Sequence record: MZ956761.1 | DNA from: a phage | Strand: one strand, 5' to 3' | Length of the DNA: 64,000 nucleotides | Shown here: positions 3,460 through 52,041 of the stretch, in pieces | Numbering within the stretch: the first letter of the stretch is position 1 | Layout: the number at the start of each line of letters is the position of its first letter | Notes under the pieces: generated by a model | Told to the model about the DNA's origin: nothing | The model's input: only the letters and a program-made list of their open reading frames with translations | Database searches by the model: none | Translations under genes and position numbers: made by a program

Positions 3460-3630
3460 ATGATTTACGATATTAGTGTATCAAGAACTCCGTCAATGGT
3501 TACTATTCCAGCTGAAGAACTAGATCGTCTTCAGAAAATTGAAGAACTTCTTTGGGAAATTGAATCTGATTTGCCATCAGGACTAGAATCCTGGATTGAT
3601 TATGAAGAACTTAATAAATTGCGAAATTAA
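3460..3630 (+). CDS. hypothetical acidic protein (56 aa)
   Basis: First ATG after upstream stop; start choice uncertain. Confidence 0.4.
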   Translation: MIYDISVSRTPSMVTIPAEELDRLQKIEELLWEIESDLPSGLESWIDYEELNKLRN

Positions 3631-3640
3631 TTGGTGAAAA

Positions 3641-3961
3641 ATGACTATTGAAAATAAATTAGATGTTGATGCAATTCTGAGCGAAATCATCGAAGACCAT
3701 GATGCATTTTCAGAAAATTATGATTTCGATTTTTCGGATTATCTTAAACCTGTCGAAATAGAAGATTGGGTACAAGATGGCAAATGCCAATATCGGCAGT
3801 GCGTTTATTTTAGTCCAAAACATAACGTTTATGTGTCTGTAAATGAATCTCGCTCAGGTTCTTACCATTCTGACTGGTATTATGCAGTTCCTACAGTTGA
3901 ACTGGTTGAGCTTCGAGAACGTGTAGTAACTCAGACAGTACGAGAATGGATTACGCTATAA
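3641..3961 (+). CDS. hypothetical protein (106 aa)
   Basis: ORF, same strand. Confidence 0.5.
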   Translation: MTIENKLDVDAILSEIIEDHDAFSENYDFDFSDYLKPVEIEDWVQDGKCQYRQCVYFSPKHNVYVSVNESRSGSYHSDWYYAVPTVELVELRERVVTQTVREWITL

Positions 3962-14248: not shown

Positions 14249-15933
14249 AGAATTTTAAACTAAACCGAGTTAGGTATCAAAATATAATGTCAGTAGGTGG
14301 AAATCCTATTGACATTCAACTAGATAAGGTTCAAAAAACTCTTATTACTGGACGAAATGGCGGTGGTAAGTCTACTATGTTAGAAGCCATCACATTTGGG
14401 CTTTTTGGCAAGCCATTTCGTGATGTAAAGAAAGGTCAATTAATAAACAGCACAAATAAGAAAGAACTTTTAGTTGAACTGTGGATGGAATATGATGAGA
14501 AAAAGTACTATATCAAAAGAGGACAAAAACCAAACGTTTTCGAAATCACCGTTAACGGTACACGTCTTAATGAATCTGCCAGCAGTAAAGATTTCCAAGC
14601 AGAATTTGAACAGCTTATCGGAATGTCATATGCCAGTTTCAAGCAGATTGTTGTCCTTGGTACAGCAGGGTATACCCCTTTCATGGGTTTGTCGACCCCT
14701 GCACGAAGAAAGCTTGTGGAAGACCTGCTCGAGGTAGGAACATTAGCTGAAATGGATAAGCTTAATAAAGCACTAATACGTGAATTAAATTCACAAAACC
14801 AAGTGCTTGATGTTAAAAAAGATAGTATTATCCAACAAATTAAAATATATAATGATAACGTTGAACGCCAGAAAAAATTAACTGGTGATAACCTTACTCG
14901 TCTACAGAATATGTATGATGATTTGGCAAAAGAAGCTAGAACGTTAAAATCGGAAATAGAAGAAGCTAATGAAAGATTAGTTAATATTGTTTTGGATGAA
15001 GACCCGACTGATGCATTTAATAAAATCGGTCAAGAAGCATTTTTAATTAAATCAAAAATTGACTCGTATAATAAAGTCATTAATATGTATCACGAAGGTG
15101 GATTATGTCCAACCTGTTTGTCACAATTAAGTTCCGGTGATAAAGTTGTTTCTAAAATTAAAGATAAAGTTTCTGAATGCACGCATTCGTTTGAACAGCT
15201 TTCAACNCNNCNNGNNNNNNNNNNAGTATNTCGTTNNTNANTNNNGNGATNNTNNNAANNNCNANNNGTNNGTTGCTTGCNNNTNNTNTGTNNCNNTNNA
15301 AANCANTNNNTNNNCACGACTGTAGATAAAGCTAAAANAGTTAAAGCAGCTATAGAANAAGCATCATCTGAGTTTATTGNCCATGCTGATNAAATNGCNC
15401 TGCTTNAAGANGAACTTGATAAAATTGTTAAGNCAAANACTAATTTNNTAATGGAAAAATNCCACNGAGGAATTTTGACTGATATGCTCAAAGATTCTGG
15501 TATTAANGGTGCTATTATTAAAAAGTACATTCCATTATTTAATAAGCAGATTAACCATTATCTTAAAATAATGGAAGCGGATTATGTGTTTACATTAGAT
15601 GAAGAATTTAATGAGACAATTAAATCCCGTGGTCGTGAAGATTTTAGTTATGCTTCATTCAGTCAAGGCGAAAAAGCACGAATTGATATTGCTCTTCTAT
15701 TTACTTGGCGTGATATTGCTGAAAAAGTTTCAGGTGTTAAAATAAACACACTAATTCTCGATGAAGTTTTTGATTCAGCAACTGATGTTGAAGGTGTAAA
15801 AGCTATTTCAACTATTTTAGATAGTTTAAAAAATACTAATGTTTTTGTTATTTCACATAGAGACCACGACCCGCAAGCATATGGTCAGCATCTTCAAATG
15901 AAGAAAGTTGGTCGATTTACTGTAATGGTTTAA
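14245..15933 (+). CDS. 46: recombination ATPase gp46 (Rad50/SbcC-like)
   Basis: 562 aa; Walker A GRNGGGKST; central part contains ambiguous bases. Confidence 0.85.
   Translation: MKNFKLNRVRYQNIMSVGGNPIDIQLDKVQKTLITGRNGGGKSTMLEAITFGLFGKPFRDVKKGQLINSTNKKELLVELWMEYDEKKYYIKRGQKPNVFEITVNGTRLNESASSKDFQAEFEQLIGMSYASFKQIVVLGTAGYTPFMGLSTPARRKLVEDLLEVGTLAEMDKLNKALIRELNSQNQVLDVKKDSIIQQIKIYNDNVERQKKLTGDNLTRLQNMYDDLAKEARTLKSEIEEANERLVNIVLDEDPTDAFNKIGQEAFLIKSKIDSYNKVINMYHEGGLCPTCLSQLSSGDKVVSKIKDKVSECTHSFEQLSXXXXXXXVXRXXXXXXXXXXXXXCLXXXCXXXXXXXXTTVDKAKXVKAAIEXASSEFIXHADXXXLLXXELDKIVKXXTNXXMEKXHXGILTDMLKDSGIXGAIIKKYIPLFNKQINHYLKIMEADYVFTLDEEFNETIKSRGREDFSYASFSQGEKARIDIALLFTWRDIAEKVSGVKINTLILDEVFDSATDVEGVKAISTILDSLKNTNVFVISHRDHDPQAYGQHLQMKKVGRFTVMV
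15207..15507. other. run of ambiguous bases (N) inside gene 46
   Basis: Scattered N characters in the sequence. Confidence 0.95.
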
Positions 15934-18895: not shown

Positions 18896-19264
18896 ATGAT
18901 TGAAATTACTCTTAAAAAACCTGAAGATTTTCTGAAAGTAAAAGAAACTTTGACTCGTATGGGAATTGCTAATAATAAAGATAAAGTTCTGTATCAGTCC
19001 TGCCACATTCTTCAGAAAAAAGGACTATACTATATCGTTCATTTTAAAGAAATGCTTCGTATGGATGGCCGTCAGGTTGAAATGACAGAAGAAGATGAAG
19101 TTCGTCGTGATTCGATTGCGTGGCTGTTAGAAGATTGGGGACTGATTGAAATCGTTCCTGGTCAAAGAACTTTTATGAAAGATTTAACCAATAACTTCCG
19201 AGTTATTTCTTTTAAACAAAAACATGAGTGGAAACTCGTTCCTAAATATACGATTGGTAATTAA
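18896..19264 (+). CDS. regA: translational repressor RegA
   Basis: 122 aa, coupled to gene 62. Confidence 0.85.
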   Translation: MIEITLKKPEDFLKVKETLTRMGIANNKDKVLYQSCHILQKKGLYYIVHFKEMLRMDGRQVEMTEEDEVRRDSIAWLLEDWGLIEIVPGQRTFMKDLTNNFRVISFKQKHEWKLVPKYTIGN

Positions 19265-19265
19265 T

Positions 19266-19487
19266 ATGACTGCTATAACTCCACAAGAATACATGGCGTC
19301 TCTTAAAGAAAAATATAATCTTTCTGCAACAGAAACACTTTTTGATTTACCAGAAAACCTCCAACTAAAATTTCAGGTAGAATTTCAAAAATTAGTTCAC
19401 CCAGAACAAAAACACTTTACCGCAGTGGTTAAGTCAATTAATGCAGATGGATTAACAATTTTTCACCGACAACTGGTATTAATTTAA
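19266..19487 (+). CDS. hypothetical protein (73 aa) between regA and gene 43
   Basis: ATG 19266 two nt after regA stop; followed by terminator hairpin. Confidence 0.5.
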   Translation: MTAITPQEYMASLKEKYNLSATETLFDLPENLQLKFQVEFQKLVHPEQKHFTAVVKSINADGLTIFHRQLVLI

Positions 19488-19527: not shown

Positions 19528-19568
19528 AGAGCCTAATAACTCGGGCTATAAACTAAGGAATATCTATG
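19528..19568 (+). promoter_or_regulatory. gene 43 translational operator (autoregulatory hairpin plus RBS)
   Basis: AGCC-UAAUAACUC-GGGCU hairpin then AAGGAA RBS and ATG; resembles recalled T4 operator. Confidence 0.5.
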
Positions 19569-22262
19569 AAAGAATTTTATATCTCTATCGAAACAGTCGG
19601 AAATAACATTGTTGAGCGTTATATTGATGAAAATGGAAAGGAACGTACTCGTGAAGTAGAATATCTTCCGACTATGTTTAGGCATTGTAAGGAAGAGTCA
19701 AAATACAAAGACATTTATGGTAAAAACTGTGCTCCTCAAAAATTTCCATCAATGAAAGATGCACGAGACTGGATGAAGCGAATGGAAGACATCGGTCTCG
19801 AAGCTCTCGGTATGAACGATTTTAAACTCGCTTATATCAGTGATACATATGGTTCAGAAATTGTTTATGACCGAAAATTTGTTCGTGTAGCTAACTGTGA
19901 CATTGAGGTTACTGGTGATAAATTTCCTGACCCAATGAAAGCAGAATATGAAATTGATGCTATCACTCATTATGATTCAATTGACGACCGTTTTTACGTC
20001 TTTGATTTGTTGAATTCAATGTACGGTTCAGTATCAAAATGGGACGCAAAGTTAGCTGCTAAGCTTGACTGTGAAGGTGGTGATGAAGTTCCTCAAGAAA
20101 TTCTTGACCGAGTAATTTATATGCCATTTGATAATGAGCGTGATATGCTCATGGAATATATTAATCTCTGGGAACAGAAACGACCTGCTATTTTTACTGG
20201 TTGGAATATTGAGGGATTTGACGTTCCGTATATCATGAATCGCGTTAAAATGGTTCTCGGCGAACGTAGTATGAAACGCTTCTCTCCAATCGGTCGAGTA
20301 AAATCTAAACTAATTCAAAATATGTACGGTAGCAAAGAAATTTATTCTATTGATGGCGTATCTATTCTTGATTATTTAGATTTATACAAGAAGTTTGCAT
20401 TTACTAATTTGCCATCGTTCTCTTTGGAATCAGTTGCTCAACATGAAACCAAAAAAGGTAAATTGCCGTACGATGGTCCTATTAATAAACTTCGTGAGAC
20501 TAATCATCAACGATACATTAGTTATAACATCATTGACGTAGAATCAGTTCAAGCAATTGATAAAATTCGTGGGTTTATCGATCTAGTTTTAAGTATGTCT
20601 TATTACGCTAAAATGCCTTTTTCTGGTGTAATGAGTCCTATTAAAACTTGGGATGCTATTATTTTTAACTCACTGAAAGGTGAACATAAGGTTATTCCTC
20701 AACAAGGTTCGCACGTTAAACAGAGTTTTCCAGGTGCATTTGTGTTTGAACCTAAACCGATTGCTCGTCGATACATTATGAGTTTTGACTTGACGTCTCT
20801 GTATCCTAGCATTATTCGTCAGGTTAACATTAGTCCTGAGACTATTCGCGGGCAGTTTAAAGTTCATCCAATTCATGAATATATCGCAGGAACAGCTCCT
20901 AAGCCAAGTGATGAATATTCTTGCTCTCCGAATGGATGGATGTATGATAAGCACCAAGAAGGTATCATTCCAAAGGAAATCGCTAAAGTATTTTTCCAGC
21001 GTAAAGATTGGAAAAAGAAAATGTTCGCGGAAGAAATGAATGCCGAAGCTATTAAAAAGATTATTATGAAAGGTGCAGGGTCTTGCTCAACTAAACCAGA
21101 AGTTGAACGATATGTTAAGTTCAGTGATGATTTCTTAAACGAATTATCGAATTACACCGAATCTGTTCTTAACAGTCTGATTGAAGAATGTGAAAAAGCG
21201 GCTACACTTGCTAACACAAATCAGCTGAACCGTAAAATTCTTATTAACAGTCTTTATGGTGCTCTTGGTAATATTCATTTCCGCTACTATGATTTGCGAA
21301 ATGCTACTGCTATCACAATTTTCGGTCAAGTTGGTATTCAGTGGATTGCTCGTAAAATTAATGAATATCTGAATAAAGTATGTGGAACTAATGGTGAAGA
21401 TTTCATCGCAGCAGGTGATACTGATTCGGTATATGTTTGTGTAGATAAAGTAATTGAAAAAGTAGGTCTTGACCGCTTTAAAGAACAAAATGATTTAGTT
21501 GAATTCATGAATCAGTTTGGTAAGAAAAAGATGGAACCTATGATTGATGTTGCATATCGTGAGTTATGTGATTATATGAATAACCGCGAGCATCTGATGC
21601 ATATGGACCGTGAAGCTATTTCTTGCCCTCCGCTTGGTTCAAAGGGTGTTGGTGGATTTTGGAAAGCGAAAAAACGTTATGCTCTGAACGTTTATGATAT
21701 GGAAGATAAGCGATTTGCTGAACCGCATCTAAAAATCATGGGTATGGAAACTCAGCAGAGTTCAACACCAAAAGCAGTACAAGAAGCTCTCGAAGAAAGT
21801 ATTCGTCGTATTCTTCAGGAAGGTGAAGAGTCTGTCCAAGAATACTACAAGAACTTTGAGAAAGAATATCGTCAACTTGATTATAAAGTTATTGCTGAAG
21901 TAAAAACTGCGAACGATATAGCGAAATATGATGATAAAGGTTGGCCAGGATTTAAATGTCCGTTCCATATTCGTGGGGTGCTAACTTATCGTCGAGCTGT
22001 TAGTGGTTTAGGTGTAGCTCCAATTTTGGATGGAAATAAAGTAATGGTTCTTCCATTACGTGAAGGAAATCCATTTGGTGACAAGTGCATTGCTTGGCCG
22101 TCGGGCACAGAACTTCCAAAAGAAATTCGTTCTGACGTACTGTCTTGGATTGACTACTCAACTTTGTTCCAAAAATCGTTTGTTAAACCGCTTGCGGGCA
22201 TGTGTGAATCGGCTGGTATGGACTATGAAGAAAAAGCTTCGTTAGACTTCCTGTTTGGCTGA
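19566..22262 (+). CDS. 43: DNA polymerase gp43 (family B)
   Basis: 898 aa; exonuclease and polymerase motifs (KILINSLYGALGN, DTDS). Confidence 0.95.
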   Translation: MKEFYISIETVGNNIVERYIDENGKERTREVEYLPTMFRHCKEESKYKDIYGKNCAPQKFPSMKDARDWMKRMEDIGLEALGMNDFKLAYISDTYGSEIVYDRKFVRVANCDIEVTGDKFPDPMKAEYEIDAITHYDSIDDRFYVFDLLNSMYGSVSKWDAKLAAKLDCEGGDEVPQEILDRVIYMPFDNERDMLMEYINLWEQKRPAIFTGWNIEGFDVPYIMNRVKMVLGERSMKRFSPIGRVKSKLIQNMYGSKEIYSIDGVSILDYLDLYKKFAFTNLPSFSLESVAQHETKKGKLPYDGPINKLRETNHQRYISYNIIDVESVQAIDKIRGFIDLVLSMSYYAKMPFSGVMSPIKTWDAIIFNSLKGEHKVIPQQGSHVKQSFPGAFVFEPKPIARRYIMSFDLTSLYPSIIRQVNISPETIRGQFKVHPIHEYIAGTAPKPSDEYSCSPNGWMYDKHQEGIIPKEIAKVFFQRKDWKKKMFAEEMNAEAIKKIIMKGAGSCSTKPEVERYVKFSDDFLNELSNYTESVLNSLIEECEKAATLANTNQLNRKILINSLYGALGNIHFRYYDLRNATAITIFGQVGIQWIARKINEYLNKVCGTNGEDFIAAGDTDSVYVCVDKVIEKVGLDRFKEQNDLVEFMNQFGKKKMEPMIDVAYRELCDYMNNREHLMHMDREAISCPPLGSKGVGGFWKAKKRYALNVYDMEDKRFAEPHLKIMGMETQQSSTPKAVQEALEESIRRILQEGEESVQEYYKNFEKEYRQLDYKVIAEVKTANDIAKYDDKGWPGFKCPFHIRGVLTYRRAVSGLGVAPILDGNKVMVLPLREGNPFGDKCIAWPSGTELPKEIRSDVLSWIDYSTLFQKSFVKPLAGMCESAGMDYEEKASLDFLFG

Positions 22263-22275
22263 TAGAATAAATCTA

Positions 22276-22297
22276 GGGACCTCCGGGTCCCTTTTTC
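22276..22297 (+). terminator. intrinsic terminator after gene 43
   Basis: AGGGACC-TCCG-GGTCCCT-TTTT. Confidence 0.65.
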
Positions 22298-22378
22298 ATA
22301 CAAGTAATATAAATCTATACTTATGAAAAACAGATGATTCTGGACCTTTAGAATTCCCCAAAAAATTTTCACAAAACT

Positions 22379-22408
22379 GTTTACAAGACTGTTCTTCCAT
22401 GGTACTAT
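22379..22408 (+). promoter_or_regulatory. T4-type early promoter with conserved leader
   Basis: GTTTAC 22379-22384, TACTAT 22403-22408; leader to ATG identical to 49600-49644. Confidence 0.6.
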
Positions 22409-22442
22409 ACAACTATCAACTAATACGGATTTGGAGAATAAA

Positions 22443-22679
22443 ATGAAAATTGTTATGGGATGCTTAGCAGTTTGTTTAGTTGCATTAGCAGCTGTTCCAT
22501 TTATTGATATTGAAAATGATACTCAGAATGTGATTGAATCTAATACTGTTATTCACATGAATGGTAAAGTATCAACAAAAATTGATGATAATCTTCATAT
22601 GAATACTAATGGAACGCTGGGTGTTCAATTAGGTAATACCTGTGTAAGCACTACTGGAGTAATTACTACTTGTATTTGA
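22443..22679 (+). CDS. hypothetical secreted protein (78 aa)
   Basis: ATG 22443 with GGAG RBS; N-terminal signal-like hydrophobic segment. Confidence 0.5.
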   Translation: MKIVMGCLAVCLVALAAVPFIDIENDTQNVIESNTVIHMNGKVSTKIDDNLHMNTNGTLGVQLGNTCVSTTGVITTCI

Positions 22680-22689
22680 GGAAATTATT

Positions 22690-23070
22690 ATGAAAATCGC
22701 TATTTTGGTTATTGCATTAGGTCTTACTGGTTGTGTAGCTCAAGGACCGGTAGTAAATCAGTCTGATGTAGGAAAAATTGTAAACTGTTCAAGCAAATTT
22801 TATAATCCTAATGTCAAGTGTTATAAAGAAGCTCCAAAACAGACAGTAGAACAAATGCAGGCGAATTTTGACGAAGCTATTCGTCCAGATGAATCTGCTC
22901 AAGCATATCGTAATTCGGATGTAATTACACGCGAAGAAAAAATTGAAAACTACTGCGCTGAACTTTGGGCTAATTGGGCTAATAATTACCAATGGCGTAC
23001 TGGTAAAAATGCTCCGATGGAGTATGTAGTGAATTCTTATAATTCATGTGTAAAAAATTTGACTAAGTGA
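22690..23070 (+). CDS. putative lipoprotein (126 aa)
   Basis: Signal peptide with lipobox LTGC. Confidence 0.55.
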   Translation: MKIAILVIALGLTGCVAQGPVVNQSDVGKIVNCSSKFYNPNVKCYKEAPKQTVEQMQANFDEAIRPDESAQAYRNSDVITREEKIENYCAELWANWANNYQWRTGKNAPMEYVVNSYNSCVKNLTK

Positions 23071-23077
23071 GGAAAAC

Positions 23078-23329
23078 ATGGAAACTTTAGTAGCAGGTTC
23101 AATTTTTATGGTTTTAGTTTCAGGTGTGTTGGCTATTATTATATACATGCTTCCATGGTTTATCGCCTTGATGCGTGGGTCAAAATCGACAGTAGGAATC
23201 TTTTTCACATCTTTACTGTTTAACTGGTCAATTATTGGTTGGTTTATTACATTTATTTGGTCAATTGCGGGTGAAACTAAAAAGTCTGCACAACCAAATC
23301 AGGTAATTATCATCAGAGAGAAGGAATGA
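23078..23329 (+). CDS. imm: two-TM membrane protein, candidate Imm (superinfection immunity)
   Basis: 83 aa, two hydrophobic helices; position between 43 and 42 and size match T4 imm; sequence not verified. Confidence 0.5.
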   Translation: METLVAGSIFMVLVSGVLAIIIYMLPWFIALMRGSKSTVGIFFTSLLFNWSIIGWFITFIWSIAGETKKSAQPNQVIIIREKE

Positions 23330-23475
23330 AAAGCAAAATTATAGCAGTGTTGCTTTTAATCTTGATGATTATAATAAGTATATACTATAGTGTAACGGTT
23401 CCTCTTATGATTCCAACTATTATTTTAGGTTGGGGTTTATTACTGTTACAAGTTAAATATGAATGTATCAATTGA
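23326..23475 (+). CDS. hypothetical small membrane protein (49 aa)
   Basis: ATGA-coupled; strongly hydrophobic; below ORF-track cutoff. Confidence 0.35.
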   Translation: MKSKIIAVLLLILMIIISIYYSVTVPLMIPTIILGWGLLLLQVKYECIN

Positions 23476-23482
23476 GGTTTAA

Positions 23483-24223
23483 ATGATTAGTGACTCTATG
23501 ACAGTTGAAGAAATCCGTCTTCATTTGGGGCTTGCATTAAAAGAAAAAGATTTCGTAGTTGATAAAACCGGTGTTAAAACTATTGAAATTATTGGTGCAT
23601 CATTTGTAGCAGATGAACCGTTTATTTTTGGCGCTCTTAATGATGAATACATTCAACGTGAACTTGAATGGTATAAATCTAAAAGTTTGTTTGTTAAAGA
23701 TATTCCGGGTGAAACACCGAAGATTTGGCAGCAGGTAGCATCTTCTAAAGGCGAAATTAACTCGAATTATGGTTGGGCCATCTGGTCAGAAGATAACTAT
23801 GCCCAGTATGATATGTGTTTAGCTGAACTTGGTCAAAATCCTGATTCTCGGCGTGGTATCATGATTTATACTCGTCCATCCATGCAATTTGACTATAATA
23901 AAGATGGTATGTCAGATTTCATGTGCACGAATACAGTACAGTACCTGATTCGTGATAAGAAAGTTAATGCAGTAGTAAGCATGCGTTCAAATGACGTGGT
24001 CTTCGGATTCCGTAATGATTATGCATGGCAAAAATACGTACTAGATAAATTAGTATCTGATTTGAATGCAGGTGATTCAACTCGTCAGTATAAAGCAGGT
24101 TCTATTATATGGAATGTTGGAAGTCTTCATGTATATTCTCGTCATTTTTACTTGGTTGATCATTGGTGGAATACTGGCGAAACTCATATTGTGAAAAAAG
24201 ATTATAAAGGTGAGTGGAAATGA
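23483..24223 (+). CDS. 42: dCMP hydroxymethylase gp42
   Basis: 246 aa, thymidylate-synthase-like fold; synteny. Confidence 0.85.
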   Translation: MISDSMTVEEIRLHLGLALKEKDFVVDKTGVKTIEIIGASFVADEPFIFGALNDEYIQRELEWYKSKSLFVKDIPGETPKIWQQVASSKGEINSNYGWAIWSEDNYAQYDMCLAELGQNPDSRRGIMIYTRPSMQFDYNKDGMSDFMCTNTVQYLIRDKKVNAVVSMRSNDVVFGFRNDYAWQKYVLDKLVSDLNAGDSTRQYKAGSIIWNVGSLHVYSRHFYLVDHWWNTGETHIVKKDYKGEWK

Positions 24224-25062
24224 TTCAATTCGTAATTCCAAGCTATCAACGCGTAGGGGCAGTTTCTGCCCTTGATATGTTTCCGACTGATTATGAACCT
24301 CATATTGTAGTACGTGAACACGAAGAAAAAGCTTATTATGACGCTTACGGGTCTAGAGCTAAAATTATAACTATTCCTGATGATGTTAACGGAATTGCTG
24401 GTACTCGTAAAGCAATTACTGATATGTATGCAGGTCAACGAATTTGGATGATTGATGATGATACTACTATTCGTATGAGTTCAATGCGAAAGAAAGATGA
24501 TCGTCGCTGCGTAGATAAAATTAATCAATTAACTCGTGAACAGTTCTATGAATTGATTCAATACGTTGAAGATGCCATGGATTGCGGGTATTATCATGGT
24601 CATGCTCGTTTACCAATTTTTAAAATTACTTCATCTTGGGGTAATTATCGTGAAAATTCATATGGATTCACGAATACTTGGTATGACCTCGGGAAACTTA
24701 CAACAGAACAAATTGGGTATGGAAAAATTGATTTATGCGAAGATATGTATGCATTTCTCAATTTAATTAATCAAGGTTATCCGCATTTGGCCTTGTTCAA
24801 ATATCTGGTTGTATCTGGAAAAGCACAGGCTCCAGGCGGATGTAGTTCAATTCGTAGTAATTCAAAACATAATAGAGCTCTTGAGCAAATCAATAGAGAG
24901 TTTCCAGAGCAAGCTCGTTGGAAAACATCGAATATCGAAAAGAGAAAATCGTTGGGTGAAGAAGACGAGCCATTAAAAGTTCTTCGCATGTGTGTTTCGC
25001 GCAAAGAAAAATCAGAAGCATTTCATAAGTTTAATGCTATTCATCCAATAGCAGTTGATTAA
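24220..25062 (+). CDS. DNA glucosyltransferase, not T4 beta-gt-like (possibly beta-alpha-gt type)
   Basis: 280 aa from ATG 24220; IWMIDDD motif; occupies the beta-gt slot between 42 and uvsX but is shorter and unlike recalled T4 beta-gt. Confidence 0.55.
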   Translation: MIQFVIPSYQRVGAVSALDMFPTDYEPHIVVREHEEKAYYDAYGSRAKIITIPDDVNGIAGTRKAITDMYAGQRIWMIDDDTTIRMSSMRKKDDRRCVDKINQLTREQFYELIQYVEDAMDCGYYHGHARLPIFKITSSWGNYRENSYGFTNTWYDLGKLTTEQIGYGKIDLCEDMYAFLNLINQGYPHLALFKYLVVSGKAQAPGGCSSIRSNSKHNRALEQINREFPEQARWKTSNIEKRKSLGEEDEPLKVLRMCVSRKEKSEAFHKFNAIHPIAVD

Positions 25063-29263: not shown

Positions 29264-29557
29264 ATGAAAAAATTTGTTTTTGCTGCAATTTTTGCTTTGG
29301 CTTCTTGTACTGCTCAGCCTGCTATGGCGGGTTATGATAAAGATTTGTGTGAATGGTCTATGACTGCAGATCAGACTGAGGTTGAAACTCAAATTGAAGC
29401 AGATATTATGAATATCGTTGAGCGTGATCGTCCTGAAATGAAAGCTGAAGTGCAAAAACAGCTTAAGTCTGGTGGTGTAATGCAGTATAATTATGTTCTG
29501 TATTGCGATAAAAACTTTAATAATAAAAATATCATCGCTGAAGTGGTAGGTGAGTAA
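29264..29557 (+). CDS. sp: Spackle (Sp), periplasmic superinfection-exclusion protein
   Basis: 97 aa with signal peptide; sequence agrees with my recollection of T4 Sp. Confidence 0.75.
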   Translation: MKKFVFAAIFALASCTAQPAMAGYDKDLCEWSMTADQTEVETQIEADIMNIVERDRPEMKAEVQKQLKSGGVMQYNYVLYCDKNFNNKNIIAEVVGE

Positions 29558-50481: not shown

Positions 50482-50679
50482 ATGAAGCGTAAACGCGGTG
50501 CTTTTACATTTATTGAATGGTTTTTCGATAATATTTTTCCAGCTTTATTCATTTTCATGCTGATTTTCGCCTTAGGTTCAGTTGTAGTTGGAATCTATTT
50601 GATGGCAGTTGTCGGAATGGACATTCATCAAAATGGCTTAAAATCTGTAGTTGAAACAATTTGGAATGGTGTAAAATGA
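50482..50679 (+). CDS. hypothetical membrane protein (65 aa)
   Basis: ATG 50482 with GAGGA RBS; two hydrophobic segments. Confidence 0.4.
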   Translation: MKRKRGAFTFIEWFFDNIFPALFIFMLIFALGSVVVGIYLMAVVGMDIHQNGLKSVVETIWNGVK

Positions 50680-51616: not shown

Positions 51617-51772
51617 ATGAAATTTGTTCACGGTATAGCCTTTTTCTGTTGGTTCTTTTTATGCATCGGAACAGTAATAACTGGAGAAACTTCAGTATTT
51701 TTGCAAGCATCAGCTCAGGGCGTATTAGCGATTTTATCATTATTCGCGTACATTGGTTCTAAAAATAGTTGA
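51617..51772 (+). CDS. ac: small membrane protein Ac (by size and position)
   Basis: 51 aa, hydrophobic, GAGGA RBS. Confidence 0.5.
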   Translation: MKFVHGIAFFCWFFLCIGTVITGETSVFLQASAQGVLAILSLFAYIGSKNS

Positions 51773-51782
51773 GGAGAATATT

Positions 51783-51941
51783 ATGAATATCGCAAAATTA
51801 TTAGGAGTTATTTCATTTATTTGTTGGATAGTAGCATGTGTTTTAACTATCTGTATCGATGCTAGCAGTGTGTTTTCACAAGCTTTAGCNCAGGGTATGT
51901 GTNNATATTTNANNTTTGTGTTGTTATCTNCTAATGNTTAA
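51783..51941 (+). CDS. hypothetical membrane protein, 3' end obscured by N run
   Basis: ATG 51783 with GAGGAG RBS; stop position uncertain. Confidence 0.25.
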   Translation: MNIAKLLGVISFICWIVACVLTICIDASSVFSQALXQGMCXYXXFVLLSXNX

Positions 51942-52041
51942 GAAAATCTTNGGCTANTCANTANCCCNTGCTACTTTANTGGTAGCACTANANTANGGAG
52001 TAANGNTCNGANTAANTCAAGTCGTGCNTTTCATTTCNGAN
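51890..52041. other. run of ambiguous bases (N) upstream of gene 52
   Basis: Scattered N characters. Confidence 0.95.

What the first reader, a model, noticed from the sequence alone, without database searches (positions are those of the whole stretch)
22379..23475. Secreted protein, lipoprotein and membrane-peptide cluster between gene 43 and gene 42
Four consecutive small ORFs all carry export or membrane signals: 22443-22679 (signal-like N-terminus), 22690-23070 (lipobox LTGC), 23078-23329 (two TM helices, Imm-sized) and 23326-23475 (49-aa hydrophobic peptide). T4, as I recall, has only imm and imm.1 here, so this envelope-targeted cluster appears expanded. Envelope-directed early proteins in T-even phages typically mediate superinfection exclusion or defence against incoming DNA.
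Basis: partly seen in the sequence, partly recalled or inferred. Interest (0 to 1): 0.5.

Follow-up and report, generated by a model that had tools for sequence, protein, structure and literature searches.

The report
Standard T-even imm locus, one extra cassette
This is the ordinary superinfection-immunity (imm) locus of a T4-like phage: three of the four small envelope genes are also in T4, and the fourth is a common swappable cassette that T4 lacks.

Summary
The window is Escherichia phage ADUt (Tequatrovirus), a 100% match. All four ORFs exist at the stated coordinates, and each has an N-terminal hydrophobic or membrane segment.

- **23078-23329** is Imm itself (PF14373; 82/83 aa identical to T4 Imm).
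- **22690-23070** is imm.1 (DUF5481), with a canonical lipobox (Cys15).
- **23326-23475** is the 49-aa ORF called "42.1" in RB32. It is intact in T4 (47/49 aa) but missing from the T4 RefSeq annotation.

The only real difference from T4 is a 247-bp start-codon-to-start-codon indel carrying the 78-aa ORF (22443-22679). That ORF is present in 326 phage records, so T4 is the minority state. T2 has an unrelated hydrophilic ORF in the same slot, and a Dhakavirus carries the 78-aa ORF at another locus.

Comparative genomics adds one modest point. An imm.1-type lipoprotein sits beside, or one gene away from, imm in every imm-carrying lineage I examined. The 42.1 microprotein is start/stop-overlapped with imm in three genera, but stays downstream of gene 43 where imm has moved away.

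Verdict: a known locus. The "expansion" is mostly an annotation artefact plus one known accessory cassette. Functions of imm.1, 42.1 and the 78-aa ORF remain untested.

The parts
22275..22292 (+). G+C-rich stem-loop followed by a T run: the terminator after gene 43
   Evidence: Terminator scan. The same element is annotated as a terminator in Yersinia phage fPS-90 and is conserved in T4, T2 and RB32.
22380..22408 (+). Early-promoter-like site, TTTACA-N17-TACTAT with an upstream TG
   Evidence: Promoter scan. Annotated as a predicted early promoter in fPS-90. It fits the T4/PST PeSL promoter consensus TTTACW-N17-TAYWAT (PMC4122927). It is nearly invariant in ADUt, T4, T2 and RB32.
22443..22679 (+). 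ORF A, 78 aa (phrog_4189). N-terminal signal or anchor helix, a linker, then a periplasmic part of about 45 aa with 8-residue periodicity (beta-meander). This is the variable cassette that T4 lacks.
   Evidence: There is no Pfam, NCBIfam or PDB match.
22690..23070 (+). imm.1, 126 aa, DUF5481. Predicted lipoprotein: lipobox LTGC, Cys15, Val at +2. The C-terminal helical hairpin carries invariant Cys89 and Cys120.
   Evidence: Pfam E = 5e-72. Lipobox rule. 99.2% identical to T4 imm.1. Family alignment. AlphaFold2 model.
23078..23329 (+). imm, 83 aa: the superinfection immunity inner-membrane protein
   Evidence: PF14373 at 58.2 bits against a cutoff of 27.9. phrog_1039, "immunity to superinfection". 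98.8% identical to T4 Imm. dN/dS 0.04.
23326..23475 (+). ORF D, equivalent to "42.1": a 49-aa two-segment membrane microprotein whose start overlaps the imm stop codon (ATGA)
   Evidence: phrog_3610. Present but unannotated in T4. Source names. Invariant PxMIPT..W..LQxK[YF]EC[IF]N across the homologues in which that motif was used to find it; the Dhakavirus AnYang copy ends KYNCFN instead.

Best explanation
**What it is.** This is the normal imm locus of a Tequatrovirus (phage ADUt). After the gene 43 terminator, a T4-type early promoter is placed to drive a tightly packed string: ORF A, imm.1, imm, 42.1, then gene 42.

**Shown**
- The 83-aa protein is Imm.
- The 126-aa protein is imm.1 (DUF5481), with a canonical lipobox.
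- The 49-aa ORF is the conserved microprotein called 42.1 in RB32, which T4 also encodes.
- ORF A is the only content absent from T4. It is a start-codon-to-start-codon cassette occupying a slot that is empty in T4 and RB32, holds an unrelated hydrophilic ORF in T2 and RB51, and holds a third unrelated ORF in a metagenomic relative.

**From the literature**
- Imm sits in the inner membrane and blocks genome entry of superinfecting T-even phage by binding the tape-measure protein gp29 (bioRxiv 10.64898/2026.03.06.709160).

**Inferred**
- imm.1 is lipidated at Cys15. Because no family member has Asp at +2, it is probably sorted to the inner face of the outer membrane, exposing a disulfide-locked helical domain in the periplasm.
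- imm.1 and 42.1 are probably accessory partners of Imm, because they stay next to it across genera.
- ORF A is a dispensable, fast-evolving periplasmic beta-strand protein of unknown target. It is not part of the core module.
For: **Identity of the locus**
- 100% match to ADUt, with the same CDS set.
- Family hits from Pfam and PHROGs.
- The alignment with T4 shows that only a 247-bp indel differs. The T4 49-aa ORF is intact, and sources already name it.

**States of the cassette slot**
- ORF A: 326 records.
- T2-type 83-aa ORF: 31 Tequatrovirus-type records.
- Empty: T4 and RB32.
- FRD3-like ORF: metagenomic locus L025.
- The ORF A copy in Dhakavirus dhaeg lies near e.1/e, with the same leader TTGGAGAATAAA-ATG and the same TGAGGAAA-ATG 3' junction.

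**Selection (Nei-Gojobori dN/dS)**
- imm.1 0.05, imm 0.04, ORF A 0.38, 42.1 0.43.

**Linkage to imm**
- A DUF5481 gene is immediately followed by an Imm_superinfect gene in 5 of 5 divergent lineages. These are Tequatrovirus, Mosigvirus MM02 and ST0 (where the pair sits directly upstream of spackle), and metagenomic loci L022/L023, L024 and L025.
- In Gaprivervirus VR20 and Dhakavirus AnYang the order is imm, 42.1, then a lipoprotein of 166-167 aa. That lipoprotein is remotely related to imm.1: hhalign probability 90%, E = 2e-6 on mature sequences.

**Export features conserved in the families**.
Against: - No SignalP, LipoP or TMHMM run was possible, and no experiment exists for imm.1, 42.1 or ORF A.
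- Imm alone gives exclusion from a plasmid (preprint), so the partners are not strictly required.
- 42.1 stays downstream of gene 43, coupled to an arabinose-5-phosphate isomerase gene, in Mosigvirus, Winklervirus and Kanagawavirus. In Mosigvirus imm lies elsewhere; I did not locate imm in the other two. Its linkage to imm may therefore be positional rather than functional.
- The remote homology of the Gaprivervirus and Dhakavirus lipoproteins to imm.1 is probable, not certain (probability 90%).
- The structure models are of low to moderate confidence (pLDDT 67 and 64) and have no fold match.
Confidence: 0.85

Rival explanations
1. One reading: all four ORFs form one dedicated, expanded superinfection-exclusion system in which each envelope protein blocks a step of entry, and this phage has more of it than T4.
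For: - All four are predicted envelope proteins in one tightly spaced early-promoter string.
- Imm is a real exclusion protein.
- imm.1 and 42.1 are linked to imm in several genera.
- In Mosigvirus the imm.1-imm pair abuts spackle.
Against: - Only ORF A is additional to T4.
- ORF A is absent from T4 and RB32, replaced by a hydrophilic ORF in T2, truncated in phage Shinka, and located far from imm in Dhakavirus.
- It evolves under relaxed constraint (dN/dS 0.38).
- None of the divergent imm.1-imm lineages carries it.
Confidence: 0.12
2. imm.1 and/or 42.1 have nothing to do with superinfection immunity. They merely share a permissive early-gene site downstream of gene 43. For example, 42.1 could serve the adjacent DNA-modification or nucleotide genes, and imm.1 could have an unrelated outer-membrane or lysis-related role.
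For: - 42.1 homologues are start/stop-overlapped with an arabinose-5-phosphate isomerase gene inside the DNA-hypermodification cluster of Mosigvirus and Winklervirus, and the 42.1 match in Kanagawavirus falls just after the same gene. In Mosigvirus imm is elsewhere.
- L024 has imm.1 and imm but no 42.1.
- Imm works alone from a plasmid.
- In Winklervirus and Kanagawavirus the related lipoprotein follows gene 43 with no imm gene in the stretch fetched.
Against: - The imm.1-imm adjacency survives relocation to a different genomic site in Mosigvirus, and about 65% sequence divergence.
- The ATGA overlap of imm and 42.1 is kept in Tequatrovirus, Gaprivervirus, Dhakavirus and L022. VR20 has no gene 42 next to it. 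In L025 the two genes overlap by 11 nt rather than ATGA.
Confidence: 0.3
3. ORF A and/or the 49-aa ORF are not real genes. They are chance ORFs in AT-rich intergenic DNA.
For: - Both are short, with relaxed dN/dS (0.38 and 0.43).
- They have no Pfam family.
- The 49-aa ORF is not annotated in T4 RefSeq or in many other records.
- ORF A is truncated in Shinka.
Against: - ORF A is open in about 300 records. A 62%-identical homologue in Dhakavirus, in a different context, keeps the same architecture and the same leader.
- The 49-aa ORF has an invariant motif, PxMIPT..W..LQxK[YF]EC[IF]N, across the homologues retrieved with that motif (the AnYang copy ends KYNCFN), with 46-60% identity over residues 20-49 across genera. 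Its length (45-49 aa) and its overlap or tight coupling with the upstream gene are also preserved.
- Both have Shine-Dalgarno motifs.
Confidence: 0.05

Closest known systems
T4 imm locus (gene 43, imm.1, imm, gene 42) and the T4 Imm protein
   Same: Same gene order, promoter and terminator. Imm is 98.8% identical, imm.1 99.2% and the 49-aa ORF 95.9% to the T4 sequences. Imm has a Pfam PF14373 hit.
   Different: ADUt has 247 bp more, which is ORF A. A 1-bp indel at the imm.1 3' end makes imm.1 126 aa rather than 125 aa. It also removes the upstream in-frame ATG that gives the 94-aa Imm variant in T4.
T4 Spackle (gp61.3): a periplasmic inhibitor of gp5 lysozyme and the second known T4 exclusion protein
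   Same: ORF A is also a small early protein with an N-terminal export signal and C-terminal cysteines. In Mosigvirus, spackle lies directly after imm.1-imm.
   Different: ORF A has no PF25676 hit, and it is predicted to be all-beta with an 8-residue periodicity. The true spackle gene of this phage is at 29264-29557.
Phage lipoproteins that mediate superinfection exclusion (T5 Llp, phi80/N15 Cor, Streptococcus phage Ltp)
   Same: imm.1 is a small phage-encoded lipoprotein made early, next to a known exclusion gene. The analogy rests on my own knowledge plus PMC9586334 and PMC3952083, which were listed but which I did not read.
   Different: There is no sequence or fold similarity, and no receptor-blocking activity is known for imm.1. 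Whether it works the same way is untested.
PeSL (promoter-early stem-loop) cassettes that shuffle small early genes in T4-type phages (PMC2839356, PMC4122927)
   Same: A terminator stem-loop and a TTTACW-N17-TAYWAT promoter lie immediately upstream of a slot where unrelated small ORFs replace one another between close relatives.
   Different: There is no second PeSL downstream of ORF A. The indel boundaries lie in the ribosome-binding-site and start-codon regions (TTGGAGAATAAA-ATGAAA and TGAGGAAATTATT-ATGAAAAT), which also flank the Dhakavirus copy. The exchange therefore looks driven by short leader homology rather than by paired PeSLs.

Membership tests
Imm_superinfect (PF14373) / T4 Imm | Pfam model hit above the gathering score | tested here: met
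   58.2 bits against a cutoff of 27.9, E = 7.7e-16. phrog_1039, "immunity to superinfection".
Imm_superinfect (PF14373) / T4 Imm | Orthology to T4 Imm: near-identity and the same position after imm.1 and before gene 42 | tested here: met
   82/83 identical to T4 Imm, with identical synteny.
Imm_superinfect (PF14373) / T4 Imm | Blocks DNA entry of superinfecting T-even phage | not testable with these tools
   Shown for T4 Imm in the literature (bioRxiv 10.64898/2026.03.06.709160), but not for this allele.
DUF5481 / T4 imm.1 | Pfam model hit above the gathering score | tested here: met
   239 bits against a cutoff of 27, E = 5e-72. 99.2% identical to T4 imm.1.
Bacterial lipoprotein (signal peptidase II substrate), for imm.1 | Lipobox [LVI][ASTVI][GAS]C with Cys at 15-35, preceded by an uncharged hydrophobic region and a basic n-region | tested here: met
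   MKIAILVIALGLTGC matches a PS51257-style rule. A lipobox is kept in 5 of 6 sequences in the family alignment, and the sixth has an AHA|S signal peptidase I site. The dedicated Pfam LPAM_1 model scores only 11.5 bits, below its cutoff.
Bacterial lipoprotein (signal peptidase II substrate), for imm.1 | Actual lipidation and Lol sorting (Asp at +2 means inner-membrane retention) | not testable with these tools
   The +2 residue is Val. No family member has Asp at +2, so outer-membrane sorting is inferred from the E. coli +2 rule only.
Sec signal peptide (signal peptidase I substrate), for ORF A | Basic n-region, a hydrophobic h-region of 10 or more residues, and small residues at -3 and -1 | tested here: inconclusive
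   K2, h-region I3-V13, and A14-L15-A16|A17 are conserved in all homologues, including Dhakavirus. However, the 19-residue hydrophobic stretch, and the alleles carrying 7-residue duplications, could equally act as an uncleaved anchor. No SignalP was available.
Lipoprotein, for ORF A | Conserved lipobox cysteine | tested here: not met
   Cys7 and Cys11 lack a proper lipobox and are Ser or Val in the Dhakavirus homologues. Only the duplication allele P0003 creates an LAAC motif.
T4 Spackle (PF25676), for ORF A | Pfam model hit | tested here: not met
   ORF A has no Pfam hit. The model does detect true spackle.
phrog_3610 / "42.1" microprotein, for the 49-aa ORF | Family profile hit and conserved motif | tested here: met
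   phrog_3610 at E = 5.7e-26. PxMIPT..W..LQxK[YF]EC[IF]N is invariant in the 20 sequences from several genera in which that motif was used to locate the ORF. The AnYang homologue ends KYNCFN.
PeSL-flanked mobile cassette, for ORF A | Promoter-early plus stem-loop elements on both sides of the variable ORF | tested here: not met
   An upstream element is present. There is none between ORF A and imm.1, where the gap is only 10 nt.

The most novel reading that the evidence does not exclude
The imm.1-type lipoprotein and the 42.1 microprotein are working partners of Imm. Together they would form an envelope-spanning superinfection-immunity module: an outer-membrane-tethered periplasmic helical protein, plus two inner-membrane proteins. 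This module is conserved across Tevenvirinae genera. The slot upstream of it would hold interchangeable cassettes, such as the periplasmic beta-meander ORF A, that tune which competitors are excluded.
Probability: 0.25. Interest if true: 0.55.

Novelty: already known. Interest (0 to 1): 0.22.

Why it matters
The case shows that the apparent expansion of envelope genes is mostly a gap in the T4 reference annotation, plus a common presence/absence polymorphism. It should not be carried forward as a new system.

One useful lead does come out of it. T4 Imm has only recently been given a mechanism (binding of the tape-measure protein), yet its two conserved neighbours have never been tested. These are imm.1, a predicted outer-membrane lipoprotein, and the 42.1 microprotein. 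Their persistent linkage to imm across genera, and the adjacency of imm.1-imm to spackle in Mosigvirus, make them cheap and well-defined candidates for the missing periplasmic and membrane components of T-even superinfection exclusion.

Tried and rejected
- **Fold searches.** Foldseek against the PDB found nothing at E <= 0.001 for the ORF A model (pLDDT 67) or the imm.1 model (pLDDT 64).
- **Sequence search of PDB chains.** Nothing significant for Imm, imm.1 or ORF A.
- **ORF A as a spike mimic.** ORF A gave a weak hit to a baseplate central-spike beta-helix (E = 0.38). I followed it up with a profile comparison against T4 gp5, which gave probability 0.3%. The "spike mimic" idea is rejected as unsupported. 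Only the 8-residue G/N/D periodicity survives (shuffle P about 0.002).
- **NCBIfam.** Nothing above cutoff.
- **"Iduronate sulfatase" label.** This RefSeq name for T4 imm.1 has no support from any model.
- **Word-indexed homologue search for imm.1.** It returned only near-identical sequences. The exhaustive HMMER search was needed, and it found only 6 clusters.
- **ORF A as a lipoprotein.** Rejected, because the cysteines are not conserved.
- **Direction of the indel.** I first read the T4 state as a derived deletion, because T4 imm.1 uses ORF A's leader. A distant relative without ORF A (L022) has the same TTGGAGAAT leader at imm.1, and the Dhakavirus copy carries it too. Insertion versus deletion therefore cannot be polarised.
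- **Strict PeSL-pair excision model.** Rejected for lack of a downstream PeSL.
- **Miller et al. 2003 T4 genome review.** It could not be read.
Full report
**1. What the sequence is**

The region 22263-23482 is 100% identical to Escherichia phage ADUt (OQ466432.1, Tequatrovirus). It is 96-98% identical to hundreds of other T4-like coliphages.

They lie between gene 43 (DNA polymerase, 19566-22262) and gene 42 (dCMP hydroxymethylase, 23483-24223).

Upstream elements:
- A terminator stem-loop at 22275-22292.
- A promoter-like site at 22380-22408, TTTACA-N17-TACTAT preceded by TG.
- The fPS-90 record annotates the same two elements as a terminator and a predicted early promoter.
- The hexamers fit the T4/PST early-promoter consensus TTTACW-N17-TAYWAT given in PMC4122927.

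The ORFs are packed 10 nt, 7 nt and -4 nt (an ATGA overlap) apart, and gene 42 starts 7 nt after the last one. Each ORF has a Shine-Dalgarno-like motif. This layout suggests a single early polycistronic unit, although I did not test transcription.

**2. Checking the observation**

| ORF | Coordinates | Length | Export or membrane feature |
|---|---|---|---|
| ORF A | 22443-22679 | 78 aa | MK, then a 19-residue hydrophobic stretch containing A14-L15-A16 |
| imm.1 | 22690-23070 | 126 aa | MKIAILVIALGLTGC, which satisfies a PROSITE-style lipobox rule; Cys15 |
| imm | 23078-23329 | 83 aa | two hydrophobic segments |
| ORF D | 23326-23475 | 49 aa | two short hydrophobic segments separated by SVTVP |

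- In a crude ORF call over the whole window, 12 of 96 ORFs have such a segment. A run of four or more has a permutation probability of about 0.013. That call scored only three of the four ORFs, because it missed the 49-aa ORF.
- I could not run SignalP, LipoP or TMHMM. The export calls rest on motif rules and on conservation of those motifs in homologues.

**3. What each ORF is**

- **23078-23329** is Imm: PF14373 Imm_superinfect at 58 bits, and phrog_1039 "immunity to superinfection". It is 82/83 identical to T4 Imm.
- **22690-23070** is imm.1: PF17578 DUF5481, E = 5e-72. It is 99.2% identical to T4 imm.1, which UniProt lists as [quoted passage not shown].
- **23326-23475** matches phrog_3610. 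RB32 annotates it as "42.1".
- **22443-22679** matches only phrog_4189, of unknown function. It has no Pfam, NCBIfam or PDB relative.

**4. Comparison with T4: the "expansion"**

The T4 RefSeq table lists only imm.1 and imm between genes 43 and 42.

The T4 DNA, however, contains the same 49-aa ORF, intact and 47/49 identical. UniProt already lists it as [quoted passage not shown]. That part of the "expansion" is an annotation gap.

The alignment of ADUt with T4 is otherwise colinear, apart from one 247-bp block. That block runs from the ATG of ORF A to the ATG of imm.1, and both ends carry ATGAAAAT.

Record counts:
- ORF A is found in 326 phage records.
- imm.1 at 95% identity or more is found in 502 records.
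- About two thirds of sequenced Tequatrovirus-type phages therefore carry ORF A, and T4 is in the minority.

**5. ORF A occupies a cassette slot**

A four-way alignment shows identical terminator and promoter sequences, followed by different content:
- ORF A in ADUt.
- Nothing in T4 and RB32.
- An unrelated, hydrophilic 83-aa ORF in T2. That ORF is in 31 Tequatrovirus-type records, including RB51 and RB27.
- A fourth state in metagenomic relative L025: a 70-aa FRD3-like ORF.

Further evidence that ORF A moves independently:
- A 62%-identical ORF A homologue in Dhakavirus dhaeg lies near the nudix (e.1) and lysozyme genes, far from imm.
- That copy has the same 5' leader (TTGGAGAATAAA-ATG). It also has the same kind of 3' junction, where the stop codon overlaps the next gene's Shine-Dalgarno motif (TGAGGAAA...ATG).

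T4's imm.1 uses the ORF A-type leader. A distant lineage without ORF A (L022) does too. I therefore cannot say whether T4 lost the cassette or ADUt-type phages gained it.

The setting resembles the PeSL-associated shuffling of small early genes described for T4-type phages (PMC2839356, PMC4122927). Only one PeSL-like element is present, though, and the breakpoints lie in the translation-initiation regions.

**6. Nature of ORF A**

The family is small: 16 clusters, confined to Tequatrovirus and Dhakavirus.

Conserved and variable sequence features:
- MK, the hydrophobic helix and the LVALAA motif are conserved in all members.
- The N-terminal cysteines are not conserved, so ORF A is not a lipoprotein.
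- Some alleles carry 7-residue duplications inside the hydrophobic region.

The AlphaFold2 model (pLDDT 67) gives helix 3-16, a disordered stretch at 18-31, and six short strands over 35-77 with pLDDT about 80.

The exported part shows an 8-residue periodicity of G/N/D turn-formers, stacking as xNGxxxxx octads. The shuffle probability is about 0.002 at lags 8 and 16. This fits a beta-meander.

No fold or sequence match is significant, and comparison with T4 gp5 is negative.

Constraint and dispensability:
- ORF A is 82-100% identical among Tequatrovirus alleles, while its neighbours are 98-100% identical.
- There are two allele classes.
- dN/dS is 0.38, against 0.04-0.05 for imm and imm.1.
- It is truncated in phage Shinka.

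ORF A is thus a real but dispensable, fast-evolving, exported accessory gene.

**7. imm.1 and 42.1 are linked to imm across genera**

An exhaustive HMMER search finds only six 50%-identity clusters of DUF5481. In every lineage where I could see context, the DUF5481 gene is directly followed by an Imm_superinfect gene:
- Tequatrovirus.
- Mosigvirus MM02 and ST0. Here the pair has moved to the 41-61 region and sits immediately upstream of spackle (PF25676).
- Metagenomic loci L022/L023, L024 and L025.

Imm homologues occur in 1002 phage records, while imm.1 is detectable in 657. In two of the "imm.1-less" genera the order is gene 43, imm, 42.1, then a lipoprotein of 166-167 aa (Gaprivervirus VR20 and Dhakavirus AnYang).

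With signal peptides removed, that lipoprotein family aligns to the imm.1 family at hhalign probability 90%, E = 2e-6, over 77 columns. Related lipoproteins also follow gene 43 in Winklervirus and Kanagawavirus.

Family features:
- None of these proteins has Asp at +2.
- Within the DUF5481 (imm.1) family, two cysteines (C89 and C120 in ADUt) are invariant. They lie in a confidently predicted helical hairpin (pLDDT about 90).
- Both points are consistent with an oxidised periplasmic domain tethered to the outer membrane. This last step is inference from the E. coli +2 sorting rule.

**8. The 42.1 microprotein**

Homologues of 45-49 aa share the motif PxMIPT..W..LQxK[YF]EC[IF]N. It is invariant in the 20 sequences in which I located the ORF by its C-terminal motif. 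The AnYang copy departs by one residue (KYNCFN).

Context varies:
- The start overlaps the imm stop codon (ATGA) in Tequatrovirus, Gaprivervirus, Dhakavirus and L022. In L025 the two genes overlap by 11 nt.
- In Mosigvirus and Winklervirus, 42.1 instead overlaps the end of an arabinose-5-phosphate isomerase gene in the DNA-modification cluster downstream of gene 43. In Kanagawavirus the unannotated match falls just after the same gene. In Mosigvirus imm is elsewhere.
- L024 lacks it.

Its association with imm could therefore be functional or merely positional. dN/dS is 0.43, which is usual for a tiny membrane peptide.

**9. How it most likely works**

- **Shown or published.** Imm is an inner-membrane protein that blocks genome translocation. 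A 2026 preprint reports that it binds the tape-measure protein gp29 and interferes with pore formation, and that Imm alone lowers T4 plating efficiency (bioRxiv 10.64898/2026.03.06.709160). Spackle, the second known exclusion factor (PMC7677548), is at 29264-29557 in this window.
- **Inferred.** imm.1 is an outer-membrane lipoprotein whose periplasmic helical domain assists or complements Imm. 42.1 is a hairpin inner-membrane peptide co-translated with Imm. ORF A is an independent periplasmic accessory protein.
- **Probabilities.** I put about 25% on imm.1 and 42.1 being true functional partners of Imm. I put about 30% on their being unrelated neighbours.

**10. Verdict**

- The claimed expansion reduces to one common accessory cassette plus an unannotated T4 ORF.
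- The locus is already known and annotated in hundreds of genomes, so novelty is low.
- The residual value is the comparative evidence that the imm.1-type lipoprotein, and perhaps 42.1, belong with Imm. That is directly testable.

Noticed in passing
window 19224-19487: An 87-aa ORF overlaps the end of regA and matches PF25760 (Phage RB18 ORF43.1 protein, E = 4e-29). T4 has only a 78-bp gap between regA and gene 43, so this is another small ORF that T4 lacks.
   Followed up: partly
window 24214-25062: The gene after gene 42 is a 282-aa ORF (ADUt annotates 5'-shifted start at 24211, 280 aa) of the beta-glucosyl-HMC-alpha-glucosyltransferase type found in T2, T6 and RB32. It is not T4's 351-aa beta-glucosyltransferase, and the T4 homing endonuclease segA is absent before uvsX.
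   Followed up: partly
window 29264-29557: The spackle (sp, gp61.3) homologue is 97 aa, with the signal peptide MKKFVFAAIFALASCTAQPAMA. In Mosigvirus the imm.1-imm pair sits immediately upstream of this gene instead of next to gene 43.
   Followed up: yes
L012 701-952 (phage T2) and 31 Tequatrovirus-type records: An unrelated hydrophilic 83-aa ORF (MKNIQTNFIQNLKVV...) occupies the ORF A slot in T2, RB51, RB27 and others. It has no Pfam hit. Homologues with 54% identity lie elsewhere in Dhakavirus genomes.
   Followed up: partly
L010 1818-4320; L020 and L021 (Mosigvirus, Winklervirus, Kanagawavirus): Downstream of gene 43 these genera carry an arabinose-5-phosphate isomerase (SIS domain), then the 42.1-like microprotein, then a protein of about 560 aa (annotated as an NTP-transferase-domain protein in the Winklervirus record). 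A tiny conserved membrane peptide embedded in a cytoplasmic DNA-hypermodification operon is unexplained.
   Followed up: partly
window 23040-23080 versus T4 (L002 around 3625-3660): A 1-bp indel at the imm.1 3' end has two effects. ADUt imm.1 ends in NLTK (126 aa), while T4 imm.1 ends in NLT (125 aa). Only T4 has the in-frame upstream ATG that gives the 94-aa Imm used for cryo-EM in the 2026 preprint. ADUt has a TGA in that frame.
   Followed up: yes
T4 RefSeq NC_000866 imm.1 (T4p046) and many derived records: The product name "iduronate sulfatase" is propagated for imm.1 in RefSeq, GenBank and even E. coli assemblies. Its only family match here is DUF5481, and no sulfatase model hits it.
   Followed up: yes
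window 22466-22493 (inside ORF A): The direct repeat TTAGCAG...TTAGCAG, 21 bp apart, coincides with 7-residue duplications of the hydrophobic region in some ORF A alleles (P0003, P0009, P0011). One of these creates an LAAC lipobox-like motif, and UniRef names that allele "Lipoprotein".
   Followed up: partly
window 15207-15507 and 51890-52041: There are 98 scattered N bases in two patches of the record (73 and 25). They put X residues into at least one small ORF (51783-41941 region, specifically 51783-51941).
   Followed up: no
window 50482-50679, 51617-51772, 51783-51941: This is a second run of three small hydrophobic ORFs (65, 51 and 52 aa). The last two look paralogous to each other.
   Followed up: no
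window 22296-22412 (minus strand); proteins P0002, P0007, P0008: A 34-38-aa minus-strand ORF annotated in ADUt overlaps the promoter region. N-terminally extended 97-115-aa versions of ORF A in metagenome gene calls read through the promoter. Both look like gene-caller artefacts.
   Followed up: no
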